Origin: Naegleria gruberi
Taxonomy: Eukaryota
Strand: one strand, 5' to 3'
Assembly: GCA_000004985.1 (NCBI GenBank)
Contig: GG738905.1
DNA: 64,000 nt
Each line of letters opens with the position of its first letter. The first letter of the stretch is position 1. The translations under genes and the position numbers were made by a program. The notes under the pieces are model-generated. The model did not search any database and was not told the origin of the DNA. It was given only the letters and a program-made list of their open reading frames with translations. Positions 1 through 44,705 of the stretch are shown piece by piece.

Positions 1-506
1 GATGACAAATAGTTCAACTCTTTCCAATAATGAAGTGACATTACTTTGTTTATTGTTTAATTCACTTTCAGAAAGCTCACTCTGTGATATATTGTAATGA
101 CCTGTCATGACTTTCTTCAAAGAGTTCACATCCAATACCATGAATTTCACATCTTCAAGCTTGTCCCTATGTTTACATATGAGAATTCCAGCACAATCCA
201 ATTTGGTAATAGACATCCATAATTTTACCGCTCAAACTGACTATCTTAGTGAAATAATCTCATCACGATATACTGCCGGCAATTGTGTTAAAATAACACA
301 ATGTTAAAAGTGTGAAATATTGGTTGGTCAATTGGTACATGAAATATAGACCAAGAAATTAGATGTCTTTTCATATATTTTCTGCACTGGAATGTCCATT
401 CAAGGCTTAAAGCGATATTTAGAAGCAATTTTCAAGAATATAAATCTTGTGAGAAAGTATTTAAAAATCTAAAAAGGCAAGTACAATACTTAATGCAAGA
501 GTTGCG

Positions 507-1581
507 TTGCTGAAGTTGGTTCAACACTTACGGCAGCAAATTAATCAAGAAAAAAACAAAGCACTTCTTCAACCATTTACTTGTATATTAGTCATGACTA
601 CTGGTTTATCATTTGTTTTCCAACAAGAGTTATTCGAAAGGAAGGGTTTACATTCGCTTGCAAGTTTTGATTTCTTCTCACCATTGGAAATTGATTTTAC
701 TAACTTGACAGTAGCAGAAATAACAGCTGGCAGTAGATTTCCTCAACTTGTTCAGAATTCAACATCTGTTGCCAATTCTTGCTTCTTTCTAATAATTTAT
801 TCGATTATTACTGCCATTACTGTTCATTTCCTTGTCAAGGCAAAGGATAAGATGATGAGAAATCAAAAGATTTTATTTGGTGTTATGCTCAGTTTCGTCT
901 TTACTCATGCCATTGCCTTGTTCTTTAGATTAATCTATAATTCCACTGGGCTTCATGTGAATCTAAACTATTCGAATATTGATAAGGAAACTGTGATTGG
1001 AAATTTGAAATTAATGTGGGCTACTGCATTCTTGGAGAATGTCATTTCCTTCCTTCAAATGATTCCGTTCAGTTGTTTCTTAATGTCTTTCATTTTGACC
1101 ATCTTGTAAGTTTCACCATGTTTCGAATATATTTTACTGATCGCATGTACATTAGTTTACAAACTGTTGAAAAAGCTGGAGCTATGGGAAGAAAAACATC
1201 CACTGCTTTATTTTGGATTGTCATGGTCATTACTGCTATTGCCATGTTTTTGGCTATTGCCTTGTCAGTGTCCAATGGTACAGTCAACTTGCTTCTCAAG
1301 ATTCAAGAAATCAGATTTGATGTGACACCAATCTATTTGTCCTTATTCGTCTTGTATCTTTCCATCATTGCCACTGAAATAGTTATCTTCTTGGCAAGTG
1401 GTATTCGTTTAGTTTATGTTATCAGAAAGAATTCATTGAATACTTCACAAGTCCAACATAAGAACTCCTTGGTTGCCTTCATGAATCGTCCATATACAAA
1501 GATTGTTGGTTTAATTACTGGTATCTTGCTTTGCCAATTATTTGCTGTCCTTTCCATTGTTTCGTCCATTTCACCTCACTC
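507..1581 (+). CDS. Polytopic membrane protein, 5' end uncertain and 3' end cut by the assembly gap. Exons are about 507..1105 and 1156..1581+.
   Basis: Two ORFs (507..1109, 1016..1636) are joined by a 50-nt GTAAGT...TAG intron with the correct phase. The translation is a run of hydrophobic helices. The ORF runs into the N gap at 1582. The track start is a TTG and there is no obvious upstream ATG. Confidence 0.4.
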
Positions 1582-5369: not shown

Positions 5370-6551
5370 ATGGGAACCAAACCATCACGTACCTCCAAAT
5401 CAGACGCCACTTCGGATGTCATGTTAATACAAAACAATAATAATATTCAACAGGCTTCAACTCGAAAAAGAGAAAAAGTTCTAATACTTGGTCCCTCCGA
5501 TTCTGGTAAATCCACACTATTCCACATGTTGAAACTAATAACTTCGGGACATGACGTTGATGCAAAATTTGAAAATAATTTGCGAATTGTCAGCTCGTGG
5601 GTTATTGAGAGAATTTGGGAAGCGATGGGAGAGCAAGAGCGTAATCACTTGAAAGATCTCATCCCTGAACTGAGATCAGTATTCGAAAATACAGAAGATG
5701 CTAATTTAGCTACTGAATTGCAGAACAGAGATGATTGTTGCGAAATACTGGTCACTCTTTGGAAAATTCCATTCTTTAGAGAGTTCTACGAATCGGTGTG
5801 GAGCAGAGATGGAATTTCAATGTTCGAAAATGTCAAGGAATTAGTCTCAAGAATTGAACACAAAAAAAGCTTTTCTCCATATTCATTGGTACATTGCAGA
5901 ACAACAGGAATATTATCATACGAAACGATGGGAAAAAACACTGAAATTGAAGTGATCGATGTTGGAGGAAGGAGAAATGAAAGAAAGAAATGGATTCATT
6001 GCTTTGAGGATACACATACATTAATTTACATGGTTTCTCTTTCAGAATTTAATCAAACTTTAATAGAAGATAACAGTACTCGTAGAATGGATGAATCTCT
6101 ATCCCTAATTAGTGAAGTAATGAATTCCAGATGGTTCGTTGGTCTGCGTAAAATAATTCTCTTTGTAAAACCGGATATTCTATGCAAAAAATTGGAAAAT
6201 GGAGTGAAATATGGTGGAGAACTCAATCCTAATATTTTACCAGAGCTAGACAGAATTGCTGACCATTATCTTAAACTAGTTATCAACTCGATCATTACAG
6301 AATTCTTCAAGAAAATCGATAGAACTACGATTGATTCCTATCATATTGTTAATAATACCTCAGAAGATGATATCAAATCCGTTTGTGAAATGATCTTTGG
6401 AGAGAGATCAGCTCAAAAAACAACCTTCATCTCACCCTGTATCATACCTGCCAACAATCGAATGATACTATGCCTCTTCAACATTTGTCTGCAAGAAAAA
6501 TTGACAGATATTCAAATCATTACTTCCAACGAAGAAGAAAATTACTACTAA
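5370..6551 (+). CDS. Divergent heterotrimeric G-protein alpha-subunit-like protein
   Basis: The N-terminus MGTKPS resembles a myristoylation site. The P-loop is LILGPSDSGKST. Switch I reads RTTGI. The block DVGGRRNERKKWIHCFEDTHTLIYMVSLSEF aligns to Galpha DVGGQRSERKKWIHCFE, but the catalytic Gln is replaced by Arg. ILFVKPD stands in place of LFLNKKD. A DSYHIVNNTS block replaces the TCATDT guanine-contact motif. Confidence 0.75.
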   Translation: MGTKPSRTSKSDATSDVMLIQNNNNIQQASTRKREKVLILGPSDSGKSTLFHMLKLITSGHDVDAKFENNLRIVSSWVIERIWEAMGEQERNHLKDLIPELRSVFENTEDANLATELQNRDDCCEILVTLWKIPFFREFYESVWSRDGISMFENVKELVSRIEHKKSFSPYSLVHCRTTGILSYETMGKNTEIEVIDVGGRRNERKKWIHCFEDTHTLIYMVSLSEFNQTLIEDNSTRRMDESLSLISEVMNSRWFVGLRKIILFVKPDILCKKLENGVKYGGELNPNILPELDRIADHYLKLVINSIITEFFKKIDRTTIDSYHIVNNTSEDDIKSVCEMIFGERSAQKTTFISPCIIPANNRMILCLFNICLQEKLTDIQIITSNEEENYY

Positions 6552-11148: not shown

Positions 11149-12828
11149 ATGACATCTTTTAATGATGTGGAGGATCAAGTTGTCATTTATTTAGATCATC
11201 AAAAAGATGGGAAAATTATCTACTCGGAAACAAATTCTCTTCTCAAGACGAAACTCTTAGCGGAATTAGTACAAAAACGAAACCATATTCAAGATTTGAA
11301 GGAATGTGTAAATTCTGGAGATAACAGTGTGAGAATGATCCTCCTTTCTCACTTTCCGATAATTGATAATCATGATCAAACCTACTTGTTGAATATTTTG
11401 GAGACTTTTAAGGAAGCATTTAAATTTGTTCCACAATCATTGAAGAATGATCGAAATTTTGTTCTGAAATGTTTGGAGGTGAATGGAGAATTATTTAAAG
11501 AGTATGAAATACTCGCGAATTATGTTTATACAGACGAGAGAACAGGGTTTTCATTTATTCGAAAAGCTTTTCAATTAGAAAGTGTCGTGAAACAGTTGGA
11601 TCCAAAGACAATTCTAAGTTTACCCTATAGTCCTTTACAGTATATCATTTCGAATAGAGAATTTTTTATGAAAGCAGTTTCAATCAATCCAACTATATTT
11701 TCATGTGCCTGTAGAACACTAAAGGCAGATGATGAGCTACTATTTGAAGCAGTGAAATATAATAGACAACATTTGAAATTTGCCTCTCTTAAACAGTTGG
11801 AAAATAGAAATTTAATATTTAGAGCTTGTGAAACCAAGGAAAGTAGTAAAATTGGATATTGGAGTTCAGTTTTGACGATTGCTTTGCCATTAGCCAAGTA
11901 TAATCCAGAATTAGCTTTGGAAATAGTGGAGAAAGACCATGAATCTGTTGCATGTGCAATCAAACATTTCAAAAATCACGAGAAAATAATAATGAAAGTA
12001 ATTGAGATAGCTCCATACTTGATATTCAAAGTTATCAAAAGGCAAGAATGGTTTCCAAATATGAAAGAAATTTGTCTATTAGCCCTAAAGAAAGATCCAT
12101 TGATCTACAAATACCTGGGGAGATTTAGATATGATAGGGACATTTTCAAGTTTGCTAGTGATTGTGGTCATATATCTATATCATACTTATATCTGTCACC
12201 TGAAATGCTAGGTGATAAGGTTTTCGCTGTTGGACTTGTAAGAAGTGTAAGTCCATTGTATTTTGAGAGACTTGATGAGAATCTGAAAAGGGATCGTGAT
12301 GTAATCCTAGCTCTTGCTGCACATTTACAAGTACTACAGCAAGAATTTAAAGAGAAGTATTTACCAAATTTAGAGAATGACAAAGAATTTTTATTAGAAG
12401 CAGTGAGAAGGAAGAGAAACGGCTTCTCTATTCTTTCATTCGCCTCAGATGAGTTGAAACAAGATAGAGAACTAATTCTTTCTGACATTAGAAAATGCAA
12501 CAATTTGAATCTAGTTCCTATCCATCTCAGATCAGATCGAGAAATAGTAGAAACTTTTATTAAGAATGTAAATTTATTTCTTTTTGATCCATCAAGTTTT
12601 CCTGATAGTCTATTGGAGGATAGTGAGTTTGTTTGGAGAATGATAGATTTGCGTCCTAATTTGATAAAAAAGTTTCCAAATCATGAATTTTTCAAAGAAA
12701 AGAAAATAATTCTCAAAATGATTTCTAAAAATATTCTCTGTAATGAAATTATTTCAAATGAACTTAGAGAGGACAGGGATATTAAATTGGCATTGATAAA
12801 AATAGGGAATTATCCATTCAAGGAATGA
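11149..12828 (+). CDS. DUF4116-type repeat protein
   Basis: About 10 degenerate repeats of roughly 35-40 aa match the DUF4116 pattern. Examples are LKNDRNFVLKCLEVNG, LKADDELLFEAVKYNRQHL, LKRDRDVILALAAH, LENDKEFLLEAVRRK, LKQDRELILSDI and LREDRDIKLALIKIG. Confidence 0.6.
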   Translation: MTSFNDVEDQVVIYLDHQKDGKIIYSETNSLLKTKLLAELVQKRNHIQDLKECVNSGDNSVRMILLSHFPIIDNHDQTYLLNILETFKEAFKFVPQSLKNDRNFVLKCLEVNGELFKEYEILANYVYTDERTGFSFIRKAFQLESVVKQLDPKTILSLPYSPLQYIISNREFFMKAVSINPTIFSCACRTLKADDELLFEAVKYNRQHLKFASLKQLENRNLIFRACETKESSKIGYWSSVLTIALPLAKYNPELALEIVEKDHESVACAIKHFKNHEKIIMKVIEIAPYLIFKVIKRQEWFPNMKEICLLALKKDPLIYKYLGRFRYDRDIFKFASDCGHISISYLYLSPEMLGDKVFAVGLVRSVSPLYFERLDENLKRDRDVILALAAHLQVLQQEFKEKYLPNLENDKEFLLEAVRRKRNGFSILSFASDELKQDRELILSDIRKCNNLNLVPIHLRSDREIVETFIKNVNLFLFDPSSFPDSLLEDSEFVWRMIDLRPNLIKKFPNHEFFKEKKIILKMISKNILCNEIISNELREDRDIKLALIKIGNYPFKE

Positions 12829-15053: not shown

Positions 15054-16757
15054 TTATTCTTGAACCTCAATTGTGATTGAGTTTGAATCCACAGCAGTTG
15101 GATCAGTGGTTGGCTTCTTTTTGTCTCCTTCTGCCAAGCATGGAACTCCATTTAACTCTTTTATCGATTGCTTGAATTTAGTCCAATTATTTTCGCAATA
15201 CACTAAACAATCCAAAACTCTATCATTGTGGAAAATGTCAATAAAGTGAGAAATCATAAGTTCACAAACAGAACTGAGGGCAGGTAAGTGTTGAGCCAAG
15301 AATTGTTGCTTTGAAACGTTGAGTGAACTTGGTGGATAGGCAAAGACAGGACCAAAAACAATAGCCAAATTGGTTTCCTTCATCATGTTAATGTGACTGA
15401 ATCTGGTAATTCTGTGCAACAAGCAACACATACATTGCAAAAGGAAGTAGTTATGTTCTGGAAGTTTGTGCATAATTTCTCTGAGGTGATCAATCTTTTC
15501 ATTCTTATCTGAAATTTTATCCAATTGAAGTACCGATGAGTAGAGAGCGTGTGGAATTGGTGGTTCTGGCAATTCTCTCAAAAACAGTTTTAATAAACCT
15601 CCAATTGTATGTTCATCTTCTCCTTCAGAAAATTGAATATCTTGATCTGGATTTTGATCGAATTGAATTTCATAAGCTCTCATACGATTCTTGTTACCAG
15701 GAACACGGAATAAACCTTCAGTTGTCAAATTATTTTGATAAAGTCTAGAAATACACTTGTAACAAATATCAGGTAAAACTCTTTCTGGATGTCTAGCATG
15801 TAAATCAACAAGTGGAACACCAAATGTGACTTTTCCTTGAGTTGACAAATCATAACGACATTCAACTCTCATATGAATTTTACCAGATGATTTTTCACCA
15901 ACAACAACTGGACGAAGAGGGAACCAATCTTCCTTATCTGCTCCAGCTCTAGCACTTTCAATTTTAACAACAACTTGTCCCATAATATCATCAGAGTGGA
16001 ATCTATCCTTATCAAACATGATCACATGCAAATCACAAGGTAATCTAGAAATTTCAAATTGGAATTCTTCACGCCATTTTGGCTCCAAAGTATTTTGTTC
16101 AACTTTTGTATGTTCAACTTTGTGTTCCATATTTAAAACAAGATAAGGATCTGCCAATCCTCCCATCAATGCAGTATCATGTTTTTCCAAATCCTTTGCC
16201 TCTCTAATTTTAACATAAACCTTAGCTTTCATTTGGAAAACTGTTGGTGCAGCCACTCTAATATCATCAGGAACCAATTTTCCAACAGTACTATGAGGAG
16301 CATCAGGATTATTACTCGAATCACTACTACTACCCGATTGTTGTTGTTGTTGATCCTCATTCCTAACATTCTTCTTACTAGTTGTTTTTTTCAAAATTGT
16401 CTCTCTAGCTTGTTCCATTGCTTGTTTCAAGGCTCGCAACCACAAATCCTTTTCATCCCAACTCTGGAATACAATCACATAGTGCGAAATATCAGACTCG
16501 AGGGTGATTTGATATTTTTTCTCATCATTCTTCGACTCGTCGATGAACTTGAGCCGAGGCTCTGTGGTGAGAATGTAGGCTTTGGCTTGTGTAGCCTCGA
16601 CGCGGTGCGGATCAAAGAAAAAGATTCCCTGCGTTGTGACAATGACCCAATTGATACGCCATGAAGGACGGAGGAGGTTTCTACCTTGGCTCTTGATGGT
16701 TTTTCTGTAGAGATAGCCTTGACGAACGGGTATGTCAATGTTATATCTTTGTTTCAA
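15054..16757 (-). CDS. PH - C2 - RhoGAP domain protein. The true start may lie upstream because the reading frame stays open 5' of the track start.
   Basis: The RhoGAP block GLFRVPGNKNRMRAYEIQFD includes the arginine finger. A C2-like block reads VYVKIREAKDLEKHDTALMGGLADPYLVL. The N-terminal PH-like segment reads QGYLYRKT...WRINWVIVTTQGIFFF. The track start is TTG. Confidence 0.75.
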   Translation of the reverse strand: MKQRYNIDIPVRQGYLYRKTIKSQGRNLLRPSWRINWVIVTTQGIFFFDPHRVEATQAKAYILTTEPRLKFIDESKNDEKKYQITLESDISHYVIVFQSWDEKDLWLRALKQAMEQARETILKKTTSKKNVRNEDQQQQQSGSSSDSSNNPDAPHSTVGKLVPDDIRVAAPTVFQMKAKVYVKIREAKDLEKHDTALMGGLADPYLVLNMEHKVEHTKVEQNTLEPKWREEFQFEISRLPCDLHVIMFDKDRFHSDDIMGQVVVKIESARAGADKEDWFPLRPVVVGEKSSGKIHMRVECRYDLSTQGKVTFGVPLVDLHARHPERVLPDICYKCISRLYQNNLTTEGLFRVPGNKNRMRAYEIQFDQNPDQDIQFSEGEDEHTIGGLLKLFLRELPEPPIPHALYSSVLQLDKISDKNEKIDHLREIMHKLPEHNYFLLQCMCCLLHRITRFSHINMMKETNLAIVFGPVFAYPPSSLNVSKQQFLAQHLPALSSVCELMISHFIDIFHNDRVLDCLVYCENNWTKFKQSIKELNGVPCLAEGDKKKPTTDPTAVDSNSITIEVQE

Positions 16758-17767: not shown

Positions 17768-18615
17768 ATGGTGTGGGGATTAGGATGGCTTTTGGGAAAT
17801 GGTAAGTTTTCTAATTGTTGTATTGTTCCGATGATGAACGTTAATTGATTTTATATTTGATGATACTATATACAACATTATATAATACTATTTATATTAT
17901 TAAATATTAAATAATTTGCACGTGTAGGAAAGGAAAAGAAGGAAGTGAAGGCAGATACTCACGAACCAGAACACAATAAGAGTATTAATAATATTCATGA
18001 AACTATCGGAACACTGGAAAAGAGAGAAATGGCACTTTTAAAAAAGAGTGAGGAAGAAGAAGCAAAGGCTAGAAAATTCCTCCAAGAAAATAATAGAACG
18101 GCAGCTGCTAATTGTATCAAGAAAAAGAAACAATATCAAACTCAAATTCAACGATTACAAGGACAAAAACAAAATTTAGAAACAACTTTACTGACCCTTG
18201 AAGATTCTGTGACAAATGTAGAGACACTCAAGGCTCAAAAGCAAGCCTCAGATGCAATTAAGAAAGTTTATAATGGTATGAAGACAGAAGATATTGAGGA
18301 TATTATGGATGATATTAGAGATACGTAAGTATAATTTGAATCTTTTTATACGAATTGTTTAATAGTATGGATGATGTGAATCAAATTGGAGATGCTCTAG
18401 CTCAAAATGTAGGTCCTGTATTTGATGAAGGAGAATTATTAGACGAATTGGAACAATTAGAAAGTGATGCTCACGAGGAAGAAATGGCCAAGATTAAATT
18501 ACCAAAAGAAAAGGTTACCAAAGACAAGGATACTACACTGCCTGTTGCATCCAAGAAACAAGTTGATCCTGAAGAGGCTGAACTGGAAAAGGAATTGGAA
18601 GCACTTATGAATTGA
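17768..18615 (+). CDS. Snf7/CHMP4 (Vps32) ESCRT-III subunit. Exons are about 17768..17801, 17928..18324 and 18366..18615.
   Basis: Snf7 hallmarks are present: a coiled-coil core (KKKQYQTQIQRLQGQKQNLETTLLTLE...) and an acidic C-terminal MDDVNQIGDALAQ...DEGELLDELEQLE segment. Two GTAAGT introns are phase-consistent. Confidence 0.8.
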
Positions 18616-18698: not shown

Positions 18699-19811
18699 AT
18701 GGGACAATCACAGGCAAAGTCTCCCACACCCGAAATTCAATGCTACTATCCAAAACAATATTTAGTTGGTGGAGGTCTTTACGTTGGAAAATCTACATTT
18801 TGTCGTGGAGTGCTAAGAATGTTTCCAAACTGGAACAAACCTTTCGAATATTCTGATGAGGATTTTGAGAAGGATCTACAACAGATTTCTTGTTTAATTC
18901 TCATTAGACTTTATTTTATGGTAGATGATGATCATCAATATGAGGAATACGAAACGCTGAGACAAGCTATCGGAAATGAACTCAACCTTTCGCGTCATTT
19001 TGATTATGGCCAGGTTACTCATATCATCAATTCAACACCAAATTGCAAACTAATTTTATTGAAAATGTGGAAAGAATTTGAACTGAGACAATTCTATGAA
19101 TCATATTGGATGGACGAAAGAGATTTTAAATTGGGAGAAAATCTGCATCAATTAATTGAAACTATTGAATGTGGAAGGAAGGATTTTGATCCCAAATCGT
19201 TATTTCCTCCAAAAGCTAGAATCAAACATTGTTTCAATGAAAGATTCGTATTCTTTTATTTCTCAACATATGCCTCAAAGTGGATGTATCTCAATCCAGA
19301 AGCAATTATATGTTTTGTATCTTTGAGTGATTTCAATCAAACATCTTATGATTTCTATCCTCGATTTAATGAATCAAAATCTCAAGTAATGGAAGAATTG
19401 CGTAATAGACGATTTTTGAAATGCAAGAAAATTCTAATATTCACTAAACCAGATGTGCTGATTAGGAAATTGAAAGAAAGAATCAAATATAATAGAGAGA
19501 TAGATCATGAAATTAGATCAGAGCTAAAAGTAATTGATCAAGAAAATGTTAAATTGGTTATCAACTCAATCGTTTGTGAATATTTCAAAACCTTATCAGA
19601 TTATGGGGTAGAAATTGACTCATACCACATTATGAACGTGACATCAGATTCAGAAATAATCGAAGTGTGCAACAGGATGTTTCTAGAGAATTCCAACAAA
19701 TCAACTTACATTTCGCCTTGCTTGTTACCGTTTAAATTTCCACCAGACAGACTTTTCAATTATCTCCAACAGGATTTGTTGACAGATGTGTTAATATCAA
19801 CCTTTCAGTAA
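18699..19811 (+). CDS. Second, more degenerate G-alpha-like paralog
   Basis: An MGQSQAK start sits in an A-rich context. A P-loop-like GGGLYVGKST is present. FYESYW matches FYESVW in the first copy. ILIFTKPDVL matches ILFVKPDIL. DSYHIMNVTSDSEI matches DSYHIVNNTSEDDI. There is no DVGGQ block. Confidence 0.65.
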   Translation: MGQSQAKSPTPEIQCYYPKQYLVGGGLYVGKSTFCRGVLRMFPNWNKPFEYSDEDFEKDLQQISCLILIRLYFMVDDDHQYEEYETLRQAIGNELNLSRHFDYGQVTHIINSTPNCKLILLKMWKEFELRQFYESYWMDERDFKLGENLHQLIETIECGRKDFDPKSLFPPKARIKHCFNERFVFFYFSTYASKWMYLNPEAIICFVSLSDFNQTSYDFYPRFNESKSQVMEELRNRRFLKCKKILIFTKPDVLIRKLKERIKYNREIDHEIRSELKVIDQENVKLVINSIVCEYFKTLSDYGVEIDSYHIMNVTSDSEIIEVCNRMFLENSNKSTYISPCLLPFKFPPDRLFNYLQQDLLTDVLISTFQ

Positions 19812-20171: not shown

Positions 20172-20693
20172 TTAATCTCTCTTTGAACCAGAAGCCTTCT
20201 TAGTCAATTGGATCAACAACATGATAGCACCAAGAGCCATGAATGTAATTGGCAAATGCTTCTTTTCAACAACAGTGAATCTCCAAGCACCCAAACCAGC
20301 CAAAGCAATACTTGAAATGATGGAAACCAAACGAGCATTATCAACACTTCCAGTATAGAACAAGTAAGCAGCAAAGAGGAAAAGAAGAGCAATTGTTAAG
20401 CCACCTGCAAGACTGGCAACAGATCCCTTTGAAATTAAATCCATAATTGTATTATGATGAATAATAAAAACATTCAATTAATGGATTAAATACCATCATT
20501 TGATCATGAAACAATCGGGATGATCATCAAATCATTTAACAATCCAAATATCCAATTATTAGTATTATTGATCATCATTAATAATGTTCAATATATTAAA
20601 AAGCAGATTATCAAACCCTACCTTTTTAGCATAACCCATAAATCCACCACCTCCTAACAACAAGGCATAAACCAAATGCAAAATAACGTCCAT
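20172..20693 (-). CDS. TMEM14-family small membrane protein. Exons are about 20693..20622 and 20426..20172.
   Basis: The protein MDVILHLVYALLLGGGGFMGYAKK|GSVASLAGGLTIALLF... matches the TMEM14 signature (GYxKxGSxxSLxAGL). It has a GTAGGG donor and a CAAAG acceptor. Confidence 0.7.
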
Positions 20694-23010: not shown

Positions 23011-26000
23011 ATGTCTAGTTTATGGCCTTCATTGGTGTTGCTGGTTATGTGTTTGATTTCTCTCGTTAGTGTTACTACTTTACATGCACAAGTGAACACA
23101 AAACCAGTTGACTACTCAATTACCACAATTATTGGTACTTCTGGAGATGGAGCAAAGGCACTCAATGTTGGTATTTATGATGGAAGAGGATTGGTTGCAG
23201 ATAATAGAAATGGTAACATTTACTATGCAGATGGATTGAATTCTCAAGTAAGATATTTTGACACTAATGGAATATCACATCTCTTTGCTGGTTCTCCTGC
23301 CTATCAATATGGATCTCCTTCTGATAGTTTAGGTTTTGCCAATGATTCACTGAGTCTTCCATATGGAGCCGCTTTAAATTCAAAGGGAGATGTTTTCATT
23401 GTAGATAGTAGTCAAAATAGAGTGAAGAAGGTATTTTACAATTCAACTATCAATGCATTCAACATGATTACTGTTGCTGGCGGTGGTTCATCATTGGCAA
23501 GTGGCATTCCTGCTCTCTCAGCAACATTTACTGCCCCAAGATGTATTGCTGTTTCACCTGATGATGAAGTTTATGTTTGTGATGCTTTTAATTACTTGAT
23601 CAAAAAGATTGTAAACGATACTATTTACAATGTGATTGGAACTGGCATCAAAGGAAATAGCGTTGATGGAACTCTTGCAAATAATACAAAGATTAGCAGT
23701 CCTAGTAGCATTGCTTTCCATCCAATAACTAAAGAACTATTCTATTCTGACCTACTCGCCAATGTCATTCGCTACATTGCTAGAAATGGATCAGTATATA
23801 CATACGCTTCAATAACTAGTCCTAGGACAATTGTTTTCAATTCAAATGGCGACATGTATGTCAGTATTTCAACAGCCAATCAGATCATCAAAGTTGTGAA
23901 CGGTATAGCAACTGTGATTGCTAATAGTTTGTCTACAAACGGATTCAGTGGTGATGGTGGTAATGCTATAAGCGCTTCATTGAGTTTTCCATTTGGCTTA
24001 GCTATTTATAATAACAGTTTATATATTTCAGATTCTTCGAACTATAGAATTAGAAAAATAGATTTGACCTCTAACATTATTAGCACTGTTGCTGGTGATG
24101 GTTCTAAACAATATTCTGCCAGGTATCCTGGTTATATCTTAGACGTTCCACTCGCCAGTCCACTATCAACATTTTACAATTCACAAACAGATGAATTATT
24201 AATGGTAGATAATAACAGAGTATTGAGACTCAATTCTTTAACAAACTACAAAAATTCTCTAATTGAAAGTATTGCTGGAAATGGGGTGTTAGCTGTAGAT
24301 GTTGATGGTAAATTGGGAAATCAAACTTCTCTCAATTCTGCATGTTCAGTCTTCCAGTCTGAAGCAACAGGAGATATTTATATTGGCACAGTAGGATCAG
24401 TACTAAAACTATCTAAGAGCAATCAATTGGTTTCAACCATTGCTGGAACAATTTCAAAATACACAGGAGATGGTTCCTCTGCAATTCAAGCCCAATTAAA
24501 TGGACCCACTGGTGTTGCCATATCACCAAATGGAGAAGTTTACATATCTGATTCAAGTAATGATGTTATTAGAAAGATTGATACAAATGGTGCTATCTCA
24601 ACTGTTGTTGGATCTAGCTCAGGATTCTTGGATGCATCAGCTCGTAGAGCACAACTTGCAAATCCTATGGGTATTGCTTTTCTGCCTAATGGTGACTTGA
24701 TTATTTCTGATGCTAAGAATAATAGAATTAGAAAATTCAGTATCAGCTCAGGAAATGTTACAACAATTGCTGGAACTGGTTTAACCACGTACAATGGGGA
24801 AGGCCTTGTTGGAGTTGCAACAAATATCAATTACCCTACTGGTATTTGTGTTAACAGTAGTAATTCAGAAATTTTCTTTGCAGGTTTGTTTTACTATTCG
24901 ATTATTTTAACACTTTTTCACAGATACCTTCAATTACAGAATTAGAAAAATAGATTCGACAGGAACTATAAGAACAGTAGTAGGAACAGGTTCCTCATCA
25001 TACACTGCAGATGGACAAAATGGAACATCAACTTCTGTTTCAGCTGTTGGCTTACAGATACATCCAATTACAAGAGAATTGTATTATAGTGATGGAGCTT
25101 TTATTAGAAGAGTTGATTCTAAAGATGGCAAAATCTATACAGTCATTGGTGGTGGAAATACTTATTCAGCACTCAGTTTAGCCAACTCTACATACTTGGG
25201 TATTGTTCGTAATTTTACATTCTCCCCAAATGGAGATATTTATGTGAGCTGTCCTTCTTTTAACGTTATCAAAAAGATGGACTATGGCTCCAACATTGTG
25301 TATAATGTGGTTGGAACTGGTAGTACGGTTCTAACTGGAGATGGACCTGCCTTATCAACTTATTTGTCAAATCCTGGTGGATTGGCTGTAAACACTAATG
25401 GTGAATTGATTTTTGCAGCATCTTCAGGATTATCAAATTATGATGGAATTAAAAAACTTTCTGGTGGAATGGTAGCAACAATAGCAGGTGGAATTGGAGA
25501 TGGTGGACTTGCAATCAGAGCAAACATTGGAAAGGTTTCAGCAATATCAGTTACTGACACTGATATTTATCTTTCAGATCAAGGCAATAACAGAATTAGG
25601 AAGATTTCATTATCGACTGGTATCATTTCTTCAGTTGTTGGTGCTTTTTACAGTACTGATAATGGTGATAATTTGGCTAATCAAACCAACATTAATTTAG
25701 TCAATGATGTGAGAATTAGTACTGGTGAAATAGTATTCACTGATTCTGGACATAATAAGATCAGAAAGACAGATCTGTCCGGAAGAGGTAAAGTGATTAC
25801 AATTGCAGGAAATGGAAGCAGTCAAGCAATAGTTTCAGAAAACGTATTGGCAAGTGAAGCGTATTTGAATAATCCTGGATCAATTGGTTATTTATCAACT
25901 GGTGAACTGATTATTACCGATACTGGAAATAATGTTATTAGAAAGGTTGGTTTGAATGGAAATATTTCATTGATTGCAGGTCAATATTTCCAAAGTGGAT

Positions 26001-39772: not shown

Positions 39773-42700
39773 CTAATGGAGAGAAATGATAGCTTGTTTT
39801 TCCACATGTTGAGCACTTGAAGACATTCTCAAATTATCTAAACTCATTCTCAATGCAGAATCTCCTCCTCTAAAAACCTCCAAAGTTCCCTCCCTTAAAT
39901 CATCTTCCTTATTTGGTTCGTGAATGTATGTTTTCATTTGACCTTTTCCTTTCACTTCGACATATCGTTCTTGGAATTCGTGTTTATCTTTGAGTCGTTG
40001 ATAGCATGTTTCGGTTACTTGAATGAATCCTGCAGGGCATGTACTTTCCATTCTTGAAGCAGTCTTTGATAATGTTATTTAAATTGTAAAGTGTGAAAAA
40101 TAAACTTACATTCACAGCATCAGACCAGACATCGTAGGCATATTTCAATACTCCACAAACTCCTGCAACTATTGGTCCAGAGTTAATGCCAACTCTTATT
40201 CCAATATTCAATCCATGATCCTCACAAAACAATTGAACTACTTCTGACAACTTGACAGCAAATGTGAAAGTTCTTTCCACATGATGAGCTTCATTCATAC
40301 CATCAGGTTTCAATCCAGCAGTACAGAAATACTTGGATCCAATTGTCTTTATCTTTTCCAAATTGAAATTGATGGTCAAGTCATCAAATTCATGAATAAT
40401 TTCATTCAAAGTTTGAACCAAATCAAAAGCAGATAAATTCAAATCCAATAATCCAACAATATCACTAAACAAAATGGTTACATCATCGAACTTGTCAGCA
40501 ATCAGAGTTTCTCCTGCAATCAGACGTTGAGCTACACTCTCTGGCATGATATTCATCAAGAGAGATTCGCTTTTTTTCTTTTCCTCAGCTAGTTCCTTAA
40601 CTTGTACTTTGTGTTCTGAAATATCACGCATGAAACATGAAATGATGTTTCGTCCTTCTAGTGCCGAAACTGAAATTCTCAATTCAACTGGGAATGATGA
40701 AGAATTCTTTCTTAAACCATTTAGTTCAAGAGTTTCAGAATAGCTTGTGGCAGAAACTCCCATTTTGGAAATGACTGGTTCTAGATTGGCAGCTGATTCC
40801 TTGTCAAATAATTTGTGGAGTGGAAATCCAATAATTTGATCTCCTCTGAATCCAAATAACTTTTCAGAAGCATTGTTGAAAATGTCAATTGTGCCACTTG
40901 ATGAGCAAATGACAGCACTCGTTAAGGCAGCTTCTAGAATGGCTCTTTCTTTTGTCGTTTTGAATTTGTTTTTCGATCTGGACTTTCCATTAGATAAGAG
41001 ATGGAAGAAGATATAGTTTCGAATATCGTCATTGGTATCCAATATTTCCCATGGAATGTAATTGAACAATTTTCTGAGAACATAATTTTCATTCTCAATG
41101 GTAGAGGTATACGTGTAGGTAATCCATGTCAGAAATAGCAATAATGGACAACCTAGGACAGCTGACAGTATTGTCATCAATGGTTGTTCTTGGAAAAAGT
41201 TGTAATAACAGAGTTTGTTTAAGGTTTCCAAATTGGTGAGTAGTACTATGGAATGATCAAAGAGAAATTCTGCCAATTCATTGATTTGTTTCATTTCTAG
41301 AGAGATAGTTTCGTTTGAGATTAGTAATTGATTGAAATTCAAAATGCTAGTTCTGAACTGCCCTATTTGGGTATCCAAAGATTGACAATCAAAATGAGAA
41401 CAATTAGTTGGCAATGTCAATAATAAATTGTCGATATTCGGATTGAATCCACTCAAACTAAAGTAATCATCAATTTGAGAACCATATCTCAACATATTCC
41501 AGTTTCTGTCAAATAAACTCATATCTGCCAATAATCTGTCATGAAATTTAACTCTCTTCTCATAATCTGCAATTGAAGCTACTTGAAGAAGATCATATCT
41601 TAAACTCTGAGATATATGCATTGATTGTGCTGTAGATTCCAACTTGTAAAGTCCATGTTCCAATATTTTCAATTTTCTGAAAATATCAGCAACGATCAAA
41701 GACATGGTTGCTGTGGCCACAATGAAGGACAAACAAACAACAATTACCAAAAAACTATTGGATGAGATACTATCCTTTGTGGAGTCTACATTCGTACCAT
41801 CCTTATCAATCAATCTCTCCATTCCAATAATGACCTTCTTGGATTCGTCTTTTGGAATTTTCTTAAACAAGTTTAGGATTTGTTTTCTCTGGTGAAGGAA
41901 TTTAAAACTACAAAAACCATTGAAAATCAAATATAGAAAGAAAATTAATCCAATAAATGATGATAAGGCAATGTAAGCATATGAATAGTTCCTTAATTCG
42001 CCTTGTTGGAATTGAAGAGTTTTTTGGAAGAAATCTAACATTCCATCTGAGAATGCTACTCGATTCATTTCAATGAAATTCAATAATTCTTGACTGATCT
42101 TCAAGTTGGATGTGTTTGTGGAAATAATTGTTTCAGATAGAACTCGTTTCGTCTTTTTCACAAACCATGAAGTTGAGGAATTTTTGTAAACTTGATTATC
42201 AAGAAGGAGAGTCTTGTCTTGTTTAGTATACAATAAGGAAACCAATTCATTGAATGAGAAGGAATCGAATAGAGTTTCGAACGAGTCAATCTTTGCAAGG
42301 TCGTTTTCCAGAACGTTCTGAAATGATTTTCTATACTCTAAAGATGAGCTATAATTCAAAGTTGACATTGCTCCAATATTTCCATTCACATTCGAAACTC
42401 CACAAAGTGTAGAAGTCGGAATTGAACTCAACATGGCAGATTTCAACAAAATATCGAATACACTATCATTCTGTGTAAATGAAAGTCCAACAATTAACAA
42501 AATTGCAATCAACACAATCGAAACCAAACCAGAGCTCACAATAAAATAAAACGTCGTTCTATTCTCATCCTTCTTATGAAGTGCCGAGCTGAAAACTTCT
42601 TGTTGCTTATCAGCTTGATCCATCAACTCTTCTGGTTGTTGTTCACTTACAGAGATGGAATCAAAGGCCTCATCATTGACATTCTCACTGAACATGTCGA

Positions 42701-44705
42701 CTCTCATGCCGTTGTTGTTATTGCTGCTACTACTTGTGTAGCTCTTTGTTATGATGAGTTCTCCGTGTGTTTTATCTGATCTTTCATTATCTGAGTTGTT
42801 GTTATTGGATGAAGAATGTTGTGAGGATGGTTTGAATTTGAATTCTTCCTGATATTGAGCGAACATTTTCTGAATGGCATGATCTTCCTCATTGTCTATA
42901 AGGAGATTGTGGAAAGCTAGGTCGCATTCATTGGATAATCTTTGAATTTGTTGAACAATAGTGTCAACAGCAACAGAGGCCAATAAATTCTTCCAAAATT
43001 GGACAATTAGTAATCTAAGCATTTTGATTCTACGCTTCGTTCCCTCCATAATGATATCAGAGGCTCCCGAAGATGAAGTTCTCCCTTCAGATAAATTCTT
43101 TTCCAACTCTTTTGTTCGAATATAGAGAGAATATTGAATGAAAATGTTGGCTCTCTTTTTCTCTGCCTTCTTAATCACTATTAAGGCAAGAAAGAAGTTT
43201 GGTATTTCCTTGTAGAACATGGAAATGAGAATTAAACTCTGAGCATCATGGACTTCTGATTTGTGAACGATTCTAATGGCATCATTTGCTAATTTCTTAT
43301 CCTCATCCGATCCTTTCAATGAAAATTTAATAAAAGTTGACAAGTAAGGCAACTCTCTCTGTGTTAACAGGACATCAGATCCACAATTTACAATTGCCTT
43401 AGCGAGATGCGACCCCCTCCTCTTCACAGACTTGGAATAGAATTCCAATATCAGAAATCCAATCACGAAAAAGATGATTCCCAAAACAAGAGGTGAAAAA
43501 GTCAATCCCAATCCAAATTCCCACATGTCATCCACGTTGATGAGAGTACTCACGAGTGAGGCAATTCCTACTCCAACTCGAGCAAATCCAATTCCACCAT
43601 AAACTGCATTGGCTTTCCTCCTCAAGAATGGTAAATCGACAAACATCAAGACAATAAATCCAATAGAAAGAACAATATAATAGACAGGTCTCAGGAAATT
43701 GACTATATGAGGAGTCACTCCTGCCACAATCAAGTACAATTGATTCGTTCCAATCAGATAGCTCATCACGAATGGATTCTCCAAAACAAATTTGGCCTTA
43801 CTCGCCACCATCGTATCACAAAATATCATGACCGCGCTCATAGTGATCAGAATTTGAATGATACAGAACAGTAAACTGATACTAGCCAATATACCATTCA
43901 TCGTGCCCCAGCATTCCACATTTCTGAAATTCCTCAATGCAAATGAAGGTGGAGCTCCCTGAACAATAGAAACCTTACTAGTAAAATCACAATCAAAGAA
44001 ACCTTGCATGAGACCATAGGTTATTGGCAGAGAGAGGAAGGTCATTAGGAAGAAGACAAATCTACCTCCAGTTCTGATCTTTTTCCAATAAGAGCTACCC
44101 AGAATGATGGATCGGTAGGTAATGTAAATAATCAGAAAGCAAATTGACTGCATCACAAAGACAATCACTGCCAATGCAATAAATCCTTCATAGGGCAAGT
44201 ATTGAAATCCCAATGTTCTTGGTATGAGTAATATGTTATAAATGTATCTGCCATATTCACCCCAATTATAATCGATGGCCACTCCTAGTGAAAGCGTCTG
44301 ATAGGCAATCAGCATGTGTATCGAGAGACACATGAGTGGATGCAATGGTTTTTCCAATTTGAGTGATTGAACAAACATGAATAGTTTCCTAGTGATGGCT
44401 CCTTGATTGTCTGTTTGTGAAGGTTGTGAATTCACACCAGACAGTTCATCAGAAATTACATTAAAGTAACCACCTCCTCCTGCTGTTGTTTTTGTTATTG
44501 CTGCTGCTTGATTCCCTGAAGCATTATTAAGACTACTAGTACTTCCATTGATGGGAAGGATTGAGTTGGAGCTGGGAGCTTCGGAGAGTCTGTTAGTCGA
44601 TCGTCTGGAGAGAAAATTCGACCTCGTCTTGAGATTCCTTCCACTATTACTAGTATGAAGTGTATTGTTATTGTTATTATTTGAATTTGAATTTGATTTA
44701 TCCAT
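39773..44705 (-). CDS. Polytopic membrane protein with a PAS domain and a single C-terminal class III nucleotidyl cyclase homology domain. Exons are 44705..40110 and 40063..39773.
   Basis: The N-terminus is Asn-rich, followed by at least 8 TM helices, a roughly 300-aa loop and more TM helices. The PAS domain reads ILEAALTSAVICSSSGTIDIFNNASEKLFGFRGDQIIGFPL...FPVELRISV...CFMRDISEHK. The cyclase block reads FSDIVGL...EKIKTIGSKYFC...GIRVGINSGPIVAGVCG...YDVWSDAVN|TASRMEST. A 47-nt GTAAGT...CAAAG intron is present. Confidence 0.8.

What the first reader, a model, noticed from the sequence alone, without database searches (positions are those of the whole stretch)
18699..19811. Second, further degenerate G-alpha-like paralog 12 kb downstream on the same strand
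It shares family-specific motifs with the 5370..6551 protein. These are the MG N-terminus, FYES(V/Y)W, I(L/F)(I/V)(F/V)(T/V)KPD(V/I)L and DSYHI(M/V)N(V/N)TS(D/E). It has lost the DVGG switch-II block entirely, and its P-loop is GGGLYVGKST. Two paralogs with the same idiosyncratic replacements suggest a small subfamily of non-canonical Galpha-like proteins rather than a single decaying pseudogene. The shared loss of guanine contacts may be ancestral to the subfamily.
Basis: seen in the sequence. Interest (0 to 1): 0.6.

Follow-up and report, generated by a model that had tools for sequence, protein, structure and literature searches.

The report
Switch-less G-alpha-like gene in Naegleria
This is an intact, apparently unannotated gene of the amoeboflagellate Naegleria gruberi that encodes a G-protein alpha-subunit look-alike which has lost the part that senses GTP; it belongs to a Naegleria-wide family of such divergent proteins, so it is a useful but unsurprising addition to a known gene expansion.

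Summary
Window 18699..19811 (+) is an uninterrupted 370-codon ORF. It is 32% identical to the 5370..6551 protein (E=2e-40), and every quoted motif is present.

- **Organism:** Naegleria gruberi (Heterolobosea), not an amoebozoan.
- **Family:** both genes belong to a Naegleria clade of divergent G-alpha-like proteins, with 20 cluster representatives from N. gruberi, N. lovaniensis, N. fowleri and environmental samples.
- **Clade hallmarks:** MG N-terminus, TKPD in place of NKxD, YHIVNxT in place of TCAT, loss of the catalytic Arg and mostly of the Gln, and a ~45-residue C-terminal extension (FISPCL...TDI).
- **What it lacks:** specifically the switch I Thr/Gly and the DxxG block. It keeps a Walker-A P-loop and TKPD.
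- **Pseudogene test:** neutral-drift simulation argues against an old pseudogene.

It is most likely a myristoylated G-alpha pseudo-GTPase that acts independently of nucleotide state. No protein at least 50% identical exists in the public sets, so it appears unannotated. Deviant G-alpha proteins in Naegleria are already reported. This is a new member of a known kind, of modest interest.

The parts
18699..19811 (+). Complete intron-less coding sequence (370 codons plus stop) of the switch-less G-alpha-like protein
   Evidence: ORF and sequence. BLASTP E=2e-40 to the 5370 protein. 223 bits to a family HMM built without it. AF2 model pLDDT 82, best PDB matches are G-alpha.
18699..18722 (+). N-terminus MGQSQAKS: probable N-myristoylation signal (Gly2, Ala6, Lys7)
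   Evidence: M and G are the family consensus at residues 1 and 2 (89% and 80% of members). Most members start MGxKxS. The fit to the N-myristoyltransferase consensus is from my own knowledge and was not tested.
18771..18797 (+). P-loop GGLYVGKST: Walker-A pattern GxxxxGK[ST] kept, but Leu and Tyr replace Gly42 and Glu43 of G-alpha-i1
   Evidence: Alignment to human G-alpha-i1 and canonical Naegleria G-alpha. Roles of Gly42 and Glu43 are from PMC9283941.
18855..19172 (+). All-helical domain (residues ~53-158) with family motifs MWKE, FYESYW and GENL
19203..19292 (+). Degenerate switch I, shortened beta2-beta3 hairpin and switch II (FPPKARIKHCFNERFVFFYFSTYASKWMYL). There is no Arg finger, no Mg-binding Thr, no DxxG and no catalytic Gln.
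   Evidence: Motif table. Family-consensus mismatches cluster here. No DVGG in other frames. This is the lowest-confidence part of the model core, pLDDT 57-72.
19320..19340 (+). SLSDFNQ (canonical and family motif after beta4)
   Evidence: Conserved columns S208, L209, S210 and F212.
19443..19454 (+). G4-equivalent TKPD (NKxD with Asn->Thr; Lys and Asp kept)
   Evidence: K250 is conserved in 90% and D252 is invariant in the family. TKPD is the guanosine-binding motif of Mx proteins.
19482..19535 (+). Family-specific insert after G4 (IKYNREIDHEIRSELKVI), absent from canonical G-alpha
   Evidence: Alignment A1, columns ~425-447: canonical sequences are gapped here, and R273, E275 and L276 are conserved in the family.
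19617..19649 (+). G5-equivalent DSYHIMNVTSD (family YHIVNxT in place of canonical TCATDT)
   Evidence: H310 is invariant in the family.
19686..19808 (+). C-terminal extension of ~41 residues beyond helix alpha5 (…YISPCLLP…LLTDVLISTFQ), a family hallmark that replaces the receptor-contacting C-terminus of canonical G-alpha
   Evidence: Alignment A1: canonical sequences end at columns ~520-531. I338, S339, P340, C341, L342 and D363 match the family consensus. This segment alone scores 17.4 bits, E=2.4e-5, to the family HMM. Model confidence is lower here, pLDDT 54-83.
5370..6551 (+). Paralog in the same window (393 aa): a less degenerate clade member that keeps the P-loop, TTGI and DVGG (Gln->Arg) and has VKPD
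   Evidence: Pfam G-alpha 185 bits. 100% identical to an NCBI N. gruberi protein over 376 aa. Motifs.

Best explanation
**Shown**
- Window 18699..19811 (+) is an intact, single-exon gene of Naegleria gruberi.
- It encodes a 370-aa member of a Naegleria clade of divergent G-alpha-like proteins.
- The clade keeps the two-domain G-alpha fold (Ras-like plus helical domain), an MG N-terminus and, mostly, a Walker-A P-loop.
- The clade lacks the switch I arginine finger in all members and the switch II glutamine in nearly all. It has TKPD for NKxD and YHIVNxT for TCAT. It carries a ~45-residue C-terminal extension beyond alpha5.
- This member additionally has a shortened beta2-beta3 hairpin, no switch I Thr/Gly and no DxxG block.
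- It retains GxxxxGKST, TKPD and 73% of the family-conserved positions.

**Inferred from established GTPase mechanism**
- The switch I Thr coordinates Mg2+. The DxxG Asp and Gly bind Mg2+ and the gamma-phosphate and drive the switch II movement.
- Without these ligands and without the Arg and Gln, the protein can neither hydrolyse GTP nor change conformation in response to GTP versus GDP.

**Inferred from ORF integrity and the pattern of conservation**
- The gene is maintained by selection.

**Proposed mechanism (inference)**
- The protein is a myristoylated, membrane-attached pseudo-GTPase that acts independently of nucleotide state. It would work as an adaptor, or as a decoy for partners of its switch-competent paralogs.
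- It may hold a guanine nucleotide through the P-loop and TKPD as a static cofactor.
- It has only 18 residues, with three prolines, before beta1, which the model leaves as low-confidence coil. Together with the degenerate switch II and the extended C-terminus, this makes canonical G-beta-gamma and receptor coupling unlikely.
For: - **Homology:** BLASTP E=2e-40 to the 5370 protein. Pfam G-alpha E=4.7e-9. phmmer against 1.84 billion representatives finds 20 relatives, and all named ones are Naegleria. The family HMM built without the target gives 223 bits, against at most 5 bits for 200 shuffles.
- **Targeted loss:** 43 of 59 family-conserved columns are identical and 50 are similar. Most misses lie in the nucleotide-switch elements: the switch I Gly, the D/G/G of DVGG and the Arg of ERxKW.
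- **Selection:** in simulation, 0.05 neutral substitutions per site leave the ORF stop-free in only 1.5% of runs, and 0.10 in 0.25%. Its closest relatives are only 33-37% identical. GC1>GC2~GC3 as in neighbouring genes.
- **Clade-wide relaxation of nucleotide chemistry:** the P-loop Lys is lost in D2VVW3 and D2VKV9, and DVGG is missing in D2V166.
- **Precedent:** plant XLG proteins act independently of nucleotide, and deviant catalytic motifs are noted in Naegleria G-alpha (PMC8584482).
Against: - There is no evidence of transcription or protein. The gene is absent from the public protein sets searched.
- No ortholog was found, so selection on this lineage could not be measured.
- The retained Walker-A P-loop and the invariant TKPD Asp suggest that nucleotide binding may still matter. 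'Nucleotide-independent' may therefore be too strong.
- The AF2 model was built from a 22-sequence family alignment and is least confident in the switch region.
- Loss of G-beta-gamma or receptor coupling is inferred from sequence only.
- Myristoylation is predicted by rule only.
Confidence: 0.6

Rival explanations
1. Young pseudogene. The gene belonged to the clade and worked until recently. It lost its switch region in a disabling in-frame deletion and is now drifting, but has not yet acquired a stop codon.
For: - It is missing from the public N. gruberi protein sets and has no relative at or above 50% identity anywhere.
- It has lost elements present in most relatives.
- It has lost more residues shared with canonical G-alpha than the 5370 paralog has (Tajima counts 45 vs 15 and 36 vs 16 with canonical outgroups).
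Against: - The ORF is intact over 370 codons. The simulation limits any neutral period to roughly less than 0.05 substitutions per site, even ignoring indels.
- Outside the switch region it matches family-conserved positions (73%) better than most annotated members (49-87%, median ~65%).
- Other clade members also lack single nucleotide motifs, so loss of the switch need not be disabling in this family.
- Annotation of this family is generally poor, with truncated models for P0001, P0118, P0129 and P0135. Absence from the proteome is therefore weak evidence.
Confidence: 0.2
2. Still a working nucleotide switch of an unusual kind. It would bind GTP (or GDP) through GxxxxGKST and TKPD and signal by binding and release or by a partner-supplied catalytic machinery, without its own DxxG or switch I Thr.
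For: - The Walker-A pattern, the G4 Lys and Asp, and the family G5 block are all kept.
- TKPD is a functional guanosine-binding motif in Mx/dynamin proteins.
- D252 and H310 are invariant across the clade.
Against: - From established GTPase mechanism, the DxxG Gly and the switch I Thr are the gamma-phosphate sensors of P-loop GTPase switches (loaded-spring mechanism). Both are absent, and the hairpin carrying them is shortened.
- The positions equivalent to G-alpha-i1 Gly42 and Glu43 are bulky Leu and Tyr. Substitutions at Gly42 are known to impair activation or hydrolysis.
Confidence: 0.12
3. Chance ORF or assembly artefact with no gene behind it.
For: None beyond the lack of an annotated model.
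Against: - Chance stop-free runs in shuffles are at most 168 aa, against 370 here.
- The similarity is highly significant and colinear with 20 relatives over the full length.
- The fold prediction is confident.
Confidence: 0.01

Closest known systems
Canonical heterotrimeric G-protein alpha subunits (Pfam PF00503; e.g. human G-alpha-i1 and G-alpha-s, Naegleria fowleri G-alpha-7 PDB 6NE6)
   Same: - N-terminal MG.
- Walker-A P-loop.
- Conserved LW, SLS(D/E)F, NRxxES-like and KW motifs.
   Different: - No arginine finger, switch I Thr/Gly, DxxGQ, NKxD Asn or TCAT.
- A very short, proline-containing N-terminus where the alpha-N helix would be.
- An ~18-residue insert after G4.
- A ~41-residue C-terminal extension where canonical proteins end with the receptor-binding tail.
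- The Pfam score is below the gathering cut-off: 36.3 vs 48.8 bits.
Other members of the Naegleria TKPD/YHIVN/FISPCL clade (N. gruberi D2VBI2, D2VVW3, D2VG73, D2VKV9, D2V8Y8, D2V166 and the window's 5370 gene; N. lovaniensis A0AA88KM44 and A0AA88GUR4; N. fowleri A0A6A5BM99)
   Same: All family hallmarks. 223 bits to the family HMM.
   Different: - Most members keep a DxGG-like block and a switch I (S/T)xG, which the target lacks.
- Only D2V166 shows a comparable gap. That is an annotated model whose DNA I could not inspect.
- The target is only 33-36% identical to its nearest relatives.
Plant extra-large G proteins (XLG1-3)
   Same: G-alpha-derived proteins with degenerate catalytic motifs. 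They function, and bind partners, independently of nucleotide (PMC8584482). This is the best functional analogy.
   Different: - XLGs carry a long N-terminal extension with a nuclear localization signal (PMC8584482) and a Cys-rich region (my recollection). The target has none.
- XLGs arose within plants and are unrelated to the Naegleria clade.
- XLGs still bind G-beta-gamma, which seems unlikely here (inference).
Pseudo-GTPases in general (GTPase folds lacking G motifs)
   Same: GTPase fold with G2 and G3 missing, retained by selection.
   Different: The class is defined by biochemistry, which was not tested here. Listing this class rests on my own knowledge, not on a tool result.
Mx/dynamin G4 motif TKPD
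   Same: The identical tetrapeptide in the G4 position. It binds guanosine in Mx proteins (PMC6408538).
   Different: This is motif-level convergence only. There is no homology beyond the shared P-loop GTPase fold.

Membership tests
Heterotrimeric G-protein alpha subunit (Pfam PF00503 G-alpha) | Score at or above the Pfam gathering cut-off (48.8 bits) | tested here: not met
   36.3 bits, E=4.7e-9, and only residues 192-324 match profile positions 197-326. The 5370 paralog scores 185 bits.
Heterotrimeric G-protein alpha subunit (Pfam PF00503 G-alpha) | Ras-like GTPase domain with an inserted all-helical domain | tested here: met
   [not shown]
Heterotrimeric G-protein alpha subunit (Pfam PF00503 G-alpha) | G1 P-loop GxxxxGK[ST] | tested here: met
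   GGLYVGKST at residues 25-33. Leu and Tyr sit at the positions of Gly42 and Glu43.
Heterotrimeric G-protein alpha subunit (Pfam PF00503 G-alpha) | G2 / switch I RxxTxGI (arginine finger and Mg-binding Thr) | tested here: not met
   'FPPKAR----' aligns to 'RTRVKTTGIVE'.
Heterotrimeric G-protein alpha subunit (Pfam PF00503 G-alpha) | G3 / switch II DxxGQ | tested here: not met
   The block is deleted: 'FVFFY-----FSTYA-SKW'. It is not present in other frames.
Heterotrimeric G-protein alpha subunit (Pfam PF00503 G-alpha) | G4 NKxD | tested here: inconclusive
   TKPD: Lys and Asp are kept and Asn is replaced by Thr. The same motif works in Mx proteins.
Heterotrimeric G-protein alpha subunit (Pfam PF00503 G-alpha) | G5 TCA(T) | tested here: not met
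   HIMNVTS aligns to HFTCATD.
Heterotrimeric G-protein alpha subunit (Pfam PF00503 G-alpha) | N-terminal alpha-N helix plus switch II as the G-beta-gamma interface | tested here: inconclusive
   Only 18 residues, with P9, P11 and P18, precede beta1, and the model leaves them as coil at pLDDT 54-66. Switch II is degenerate. Binding itself is not testable here.
Heterotrimeric G-protein alpha subunit (Pfam PF00503 G-alpha) | GTP binding and hydrolysis | not testable with these tools
   Needs recombinant protein.
Naegleria divergent G-alpha-like clade (defined here by TKPD, YHIVNxT and the FISPCL...TDI extension) | Significant match to a family profile built without the target | tested here: met
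   223 bits, E=7e-68. The N-half, C-half and C-terminal extension are each significant. Shuffles score at most 5 bits.
Naegleria divergent G-alpha-like clade (defined here by TKPD, YHIVNxT and the FISPCL...TDI extension) | Hallmark motifs: MG start, (T/S/V)KxD, YH(I/V)xN, NSI, (F/Y)ISPCL, xDI C-terminus | tested here: met
   All are present in the target.
Naegleria divergent G-alpha-like clade (defined here by TKPD, YHIVNxT and the FISPCL...TDI extension) | Groups with the clade apart from canonical Naegleria and human G-alpha | tested here: met
   In the NJ tree the clade is separated from canonical G-alpha by a long stem. The stem split was not among the nodes listed with at least 50% bootstrap. 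The target's position inside the clade is weakly supported (50%).
Pseudo-GTPase (pseudoenzyme with GTPase fold) | GTPase fold with one or more G motifs missing | tested here: met
   G2 and G3 are missing and G5 is altered. The fold is confirmed.
Pseudo-GTPase (pseudoenzyme with GTPase fold) | No GTP hydrolysis and/or no nucleotide binding, shown biochemically | not testable with these tools
   Needs an experiment.
Plant XLG-type extra-large G-alpha | Long N-terminal extension with an NLS (and, from my recollection, a Cys-rich region) in front of the G-alpha domain | tested here: not met
   The G-alpha domain starts at residue ~19 and there is no extension. This is an analogy only.
Pseudogene | Stop codons, frameshifts or truncation relative to functional relatives | tested here: not met
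   The reading frame is open and colinear with relatives from the MG start to the C-terminal xDI motif.
Pseudogene | No expression; dN/dS near 1 on its own lineage | not testable with these tools
   No ortholog was found. Comparison between the paralogs is saturated, pS 0.73. No expression data are available.

The most novel reading that the evidence does not exclude
The Naegleria clade may be a distinct class of myristoylated G-alpha-fold proteins that has left the GTPase cycle and canonical receptor and G-beta-gamma coupling altogether.

- Different members have lost different phosphate, Mg or switch elements: the P-loop Lys in D2VVW3 and D2VKV9, and DxxG in this gene and D2V166.
- The base-binding half (the Asp of TKPD and the His of YHIVN), the new C-terminal module (ISPCL...DI) and the post-G4 insert stay strictly conserved.

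This pattern would fit a repurposed pocket that binds a nucleoside, a nucleotide base or another small ligand statically, or a purely scaffolding role. The present gene would be the most extreme natural 'switch-deleted' example.
Probability: 0.25. Interest if true: 0.55.

Novelty: new member of a known kind. Interest (0 to 1): 0.33.

Why it matters
N. gruberi is reported to have about 44 G-alpha genes, perhaps the largest set known. Some of them are noted to deviate in catalytic motifs (PMC8584482, citing Anantharaman et al. 2011).

This gene adds a member that appears unannotated. It also shows cleanly that one clade of that expansion tolerates complete removal of the GTP-sensing switch while the rest of the protein stays conserved.

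That makes it a natural test case for nucleotide-independent G-alpha function, a question currently studied mainly in plant XLG proteins.

It also points to annotation problems for this family in the Naegleria proteomes, including missed, truncated and split models.

It does not overturn anything known about G proteins.

Tried and rejected
1. **Word-indexed homolog search with the target.** No hits. A second search with the family alignment returned one protein, so this tool was not sensitive enough. The exhaustive phmmer search gave the family.
2. **Exact-sequence look-ups.** I tried the target, the 5370 protein, P0001 and a neighbouring ORF to get the public gene calls around the target. None is on record, so N. 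gruberi positions are apparently not indexed. Absence therefore says nothing about expression.
3. **Scan of JGI metagenome contigs for an ortholog.** No relative found.
pS=0.73, so synonymous sites are saturated and the nominal ratio of 0.23 is not interpretable. The 5370 gene against its 78%-identical environmental relative gives dS 0.33, dN 0.12 and a ratio of 0.37. This shows purifying selection on the paralog but says nothing about the target.
5. **Single-sequence search of PDB sequences with the target.** Only a chance antibody hit. Fold comparison was needed.
6. **afdb50 fold library.** Not available.
7. **Anantharaman et al. 2011, the likely first description of deviant Naegleria G-alpha.** The paper is not held, so I could only cite it second-hand.
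8. **Hidden DVGG in another frame or behind an intron.** Rejected.
9. **Amoebozoan (Dictyostelid) origin, which I first suspected from the 33% GC.** Rejected.
10. **Recent tandem duplication of the 5370 gene.** Rejected by identities and the tree.
Full report
**1. The observation**

Window 18699..19811 (+) is an uninterrupted reading frame of 370 codons plus a stop. It begins at the first in-frame ATG, in the context AAAAAAATGG.

Mononucleotide shuffles of the whole 64-kb window give stop-free runs of at most 99-168 aa, so the ORF is not a chance feature.

- MGQSQAKS at the N-terminus.
- P-loop GGLYVGKST (residues 25-33).
- FYESYW (132-137).
- ILIFTKPDVL (245-254).
- DSYHIMNVTSD (307-317).

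The protein of 5370..6551 (+) carries the matching FYESVW, IILFVKPDIL and DSYHIVNNTSE. BLASTP aligns the two over 341 columns at 32% identity, E=2e-40. They lie about 12.1 kb apart on the same strand. tblastn with 21 family and canonical G-alpha sequences finds no third copy in the window.

The DVGG block is truly missing. The alignment reads 'FVFFY-----FSTYA-SKWMY' against 'EIEVIDVGG-RRNER-KKWIH'. The other two forward frames contain nothing resembling it.

**2. Where the window comes from**

The 5370 protein is 100% identical over 376 residues to an NCBI 'predicted protein [Naegleria gruberi]' (P0001). The window has 30-37% GC. Neighbouring genes are ordinary eukaryotic genes:
- a PH-C2-RhoGAP protein on the minus strand;
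- a Snf7/CHMP gene with a 40-nt GT..AG intron that ends 83 nt before the target's ATG;
- a TMEM14 homolog;
- an NHL-repeat protein.

**3. What the protein is**

Pfam recognises the 5370 protein as G-alpha (185 bits). It gives the target only 36.3 bits, below the 48.8-bit cut-off, and only over residues 192-324. A single-sequence search of PDB sequences finds nothing meaningful.

An exhaustive phmmer search of 1.84 billion cluster representatives finds 20 relatives at E<1e-3. Every one that carries a name is from Naegleria:
- N. gruberi: D2VBI2, D2VVW3, D2VG73, D2VKV9, D2V8Z1/D2V8Y8, D2V166.
- N. lovaniensis: three proteins.
- N. fowleri: A0A6A5BM99.

The rest come from environmental ENA, JGI and Logan assemblies.

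Aligned together, these proteins form a clade with its own hallmarks:
- an MGxKxS N-terminus;
- a mostly intact GxxxxGK[ST];
- LW and EN motifs in the helical domain;
- SLSEFNQ and NRMxESL;
- (I/L)xFTKPDIL in place of NKxD;
- an insert 'VKYxRELxxxIRPEL' after G4;
- NSIIxEY;
- YHIVNxT in place of TCAT;
- a ~45-residue C-terminal extension 'FISPCL...L(T/C)DI' beyond the point where canonical G-alpha proteins end.

In an NJ tree the clade sits apart from canonical N. gruberi, N. fowleri and human G-alpha on a long stem.

A family HMM built without the target scores it at 223 bits (E=7e-68). The N-terminal half (53.6 bits), the C-terminal half (167.5 bits) and the C-terminal extension alone (17.4 bits) are each significant. 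Two hundred shuffles reach at most 5 bits.

An AlphaFold2 model made from the family alignment is confident (pLDDT 82, pTM 0.82). Its best PDB matches are G-alpha subunits across both domains:
- Foldseek E~4e-12 over ~345 columns.

**4. What is and is not degenerate**

I used human G-alpha-i1 for numbering.

The motif table shows the following for the clade as a whole:
- The switch I arginine finger (Arg178) is replaced in every member.
- The switch II Gln204 is replaced in all but two members.
- The G4 Lys and Asp are almost always kept, and the Asp is invariant.

TKPD is not a broken motif. It is the guanosine-binding element of the Mx/dynamin tripartite GTP-binding motif (PMC6408538).

The target goes further in one region only (residues 169-198). 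The Mg-binding Thr and the Gly of switch I are gone. The beta2-beta3 hairpin is shortened, and the whole DxxG block is missing. In the P-loop, Leu and Tyr occupy the positions of Gly42 and Glu43. Substitutions at Gly42 impair hydrolysis or activation, and Glu43 pairs with the arginine finger (PMC9283941).

Elsewhere the target is a good family member. It is identical at 43 and similar at 50 of the 59 columns where at least 60% of the other members agree. In a leave-one-out version of the same count it scores 0.77, against 0.49-0.87 for the other members. Most of its misses lie in the nucleotide-switch elements: the switch I Gly, the D/G/G of DVGG and the Arg of ERxKW.

Other members have lost other nucleotide elements:
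- the P-loop Lys in D2VVW3 and D2VKV9;
- DVGG and the G4 Lys in D2V166, an annotated model whose DNA I could not check.

Decay of the phosphate/Mg/switch half is therefore mosaic across the clade.

**5. Gene or pseudogene**

The nearest relatives are only 33-37% identical. In the NJ tree the target branches outside (D2VVW3,(D2VBI2,(P0002, 5370 protein))) with weak support. It is an old paralog, not a fresh tandem copy.

Tajima counts show it has lost more residues shared with canonical G-alpha than the 5370 protein has (45 vs 15 and 36 vs 16). Against clade outgroups it is only mildly faster.

In a neutral-drift simulation using the window's base composition, 0.05 substitutions per site (10% amino-acid change) leave the frame stop-free in 1.5% of runs. 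At 0.10 substitutions per site the figure is 0.25%, and beyond that it is zero. Indels were ignored, which makes this conservative. Nearly all of its divergence therefore happened with the frame under selection.

Codon-position GC (0.40/0.29/0.30) resembles that of neighbouring genes.

The 5370 gene compared with its environmental relative P0002 (locus L001; 78% identical over the aligned codons) gives dS 0.33, dN 0.12 and a ratio of 0.37. This shows constraint on that paralog only.

I found no ortholog of the target in the protein libraries or in JGI metagenome contigs. There is no expression evidence. A very recent pseudogenisation cannot be excluded.

**6. Annotation status**

The target has no identical entry in the collection. 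It also has no relative at or above 50% identity among the representatives of about 15 billion predicted proteins, a set that does contain the other N. gruberi members. The word-indexed search likewise returned nothing. The gene therefore appears to be missing from the public N. gruberi proteome.

Several relatives are visibly mis-modelled:
- P0001 starts 17 residues late and so loses the MG signal.
- D2VBI2 starts inside the helical domain.
- N. fowleri A0A6A5BM99 is cut at the C-terminus compared with a 397-aa Logan member.
- D2V8Z1 is a 108-aa fragment next to D2V8Y8.

**7. Most likely mechanism**

Shown: G-alpha fold, clade membership, targeted absence of G2 and G3, retained Walker A and TKPD, intact frame.

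Inferred from the established GTPase mechanism: the switch I Thr and the DxxG Asp and Gly are the Mg2+ and gamma-phosphate ligands, and the Arg and Gln are the catalytic residues. Without them the protein cannot hydrolyse GTP or switch conformation between GTP and GDP states.

Inferred: it acts as an N-myristoylated, membrane-associated pseudo-GTPase, meaning an adaptor or decoy independent of nucleotide state. It may hold a guanine nucleotide as a static cofactor.

The 18-residue proline-containing N-terminus, the degenerate switch II and the extended C-terminus argue against canonical G-beta-gamma and receptor coupling. That argument is inference only.

The closest functional analogy is the plant XLG proteins, which work independently of nucleotide (PMC8584482).

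Rivals:
- a very young pseudogene (about 0.2);
- an unconventional but still nucleotide-regulated protein (about 0.12);
- a chance ORF (refuted).

**8. Novelty**

Lineage-specific diversification of G-alpha in N. gruberi is published (PMC3971589). One review reports '44 distinct G-alpha subunits', and it says catalytic motifs deviate in some G-alpha subunits of Dictyostelium, Naegleria and plants (PMC8584482, citing Anantharaman et al. 2011). I could not read the primary paper.

The finding is therefore a new, apparently unannotated and unusually extreme member of a known kind. I do not know whether the clade's hallmarks have been described explicitly before: TKPD, YHIVN, the C-terminal ISPCL...DI module, and mosaic loss of phosphate-side motifs with strict retention of the base-side residues.

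Interest is modest.

Noticed in passing
window 5370..5420 (start of the 5370..6551 gene): The public N. gruberi model (P0001, 376 aa) starts at Met18 (window 5421). The ORF's first ATG at 5370 gives MGTKPSRT, and the 74-78%-identical environmental relative P0002 has the same N-terminus. The annotated model probably lacks the true start and its myristoylation signal.
   Followed up: partly
window 18699..19811: The target protein is absent from the public protein collections searched. There is no exact entry and no relative at or above 50% identity, although other N. gruberi family members are present. It appears to be an unannotated gene.
   Followed up: yes
Related proteins P0121 (D2VVW3), P0127 (D2VKV9), P0136 (D2V166): Nucleotide motifs decay in a mosaic pattern across the clade. 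The P-loop Lys is lost in D2VVW3 (GTADSGTST) and D2VKV9 (PGSGAST). DVGG is missing and TKPD reads THPD in D2V166. Yet the Asp of TKPD and the His of YHIVN are invariant in all members. I have no explanation for why the base-binding side is the best conserved.
   Followed up: partly
Related proteins P0118, P0129/P0139, P0135/P0140: Several family members look mis-annotated. D2VBI2 (263 aa) starts inside the helical domain. N. fowleri A0A6A5BM99 (317 aa) lacks the C-terminus seen in the 397-aa Logan member of its cluster. D2V8Z1 is a 108-aa fragment with an accession adjacent to the 375-aa D2V8Y8, which suggests a tandem pair or a split model.
   Followed up: no
window 17945..18615 (+): This is a Snf7/CHMP-family gene in at least two exons, with a 40-nt GT..AG intron at about 18326..18365. 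Its stop codon lies only 83 nt upstream of the target's ATG, so the target's promoter must be very short or must overlap the neighbour's 3' end. The 5370 gene likewise starts 48 nt after the preceding ORF.
   Followed up: partly
L001 (ENA ERZ929261 contig, 3061 bp), gene 127..1245: An environmental relative is 74-78% identical to the 5370 protein (dS 0.33, dN/dS 0.37) and keeps the catalytic Gln (DVGGQ). Its downstream neighbour is a CoA-transferase on the opposite strand, unlike the window, so local gene order is not conserved.
   Followed up: partly
window 15054..16757 (-), 11149..12828 (+), 23011..24945 (+), 20172..20477 (-): Neighbouring genes are a PH-C2-RhoGAP protein, a DUF4116-repeat protein, an NHL-repeat protein and a TMEM14 homolog. 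None has an evident functional link to the G-alpha-like genes.
   Followed up: partly
window 39984..44705 (-): A very long ORF (1573 aa) that I did not examine.
   Followed up: no
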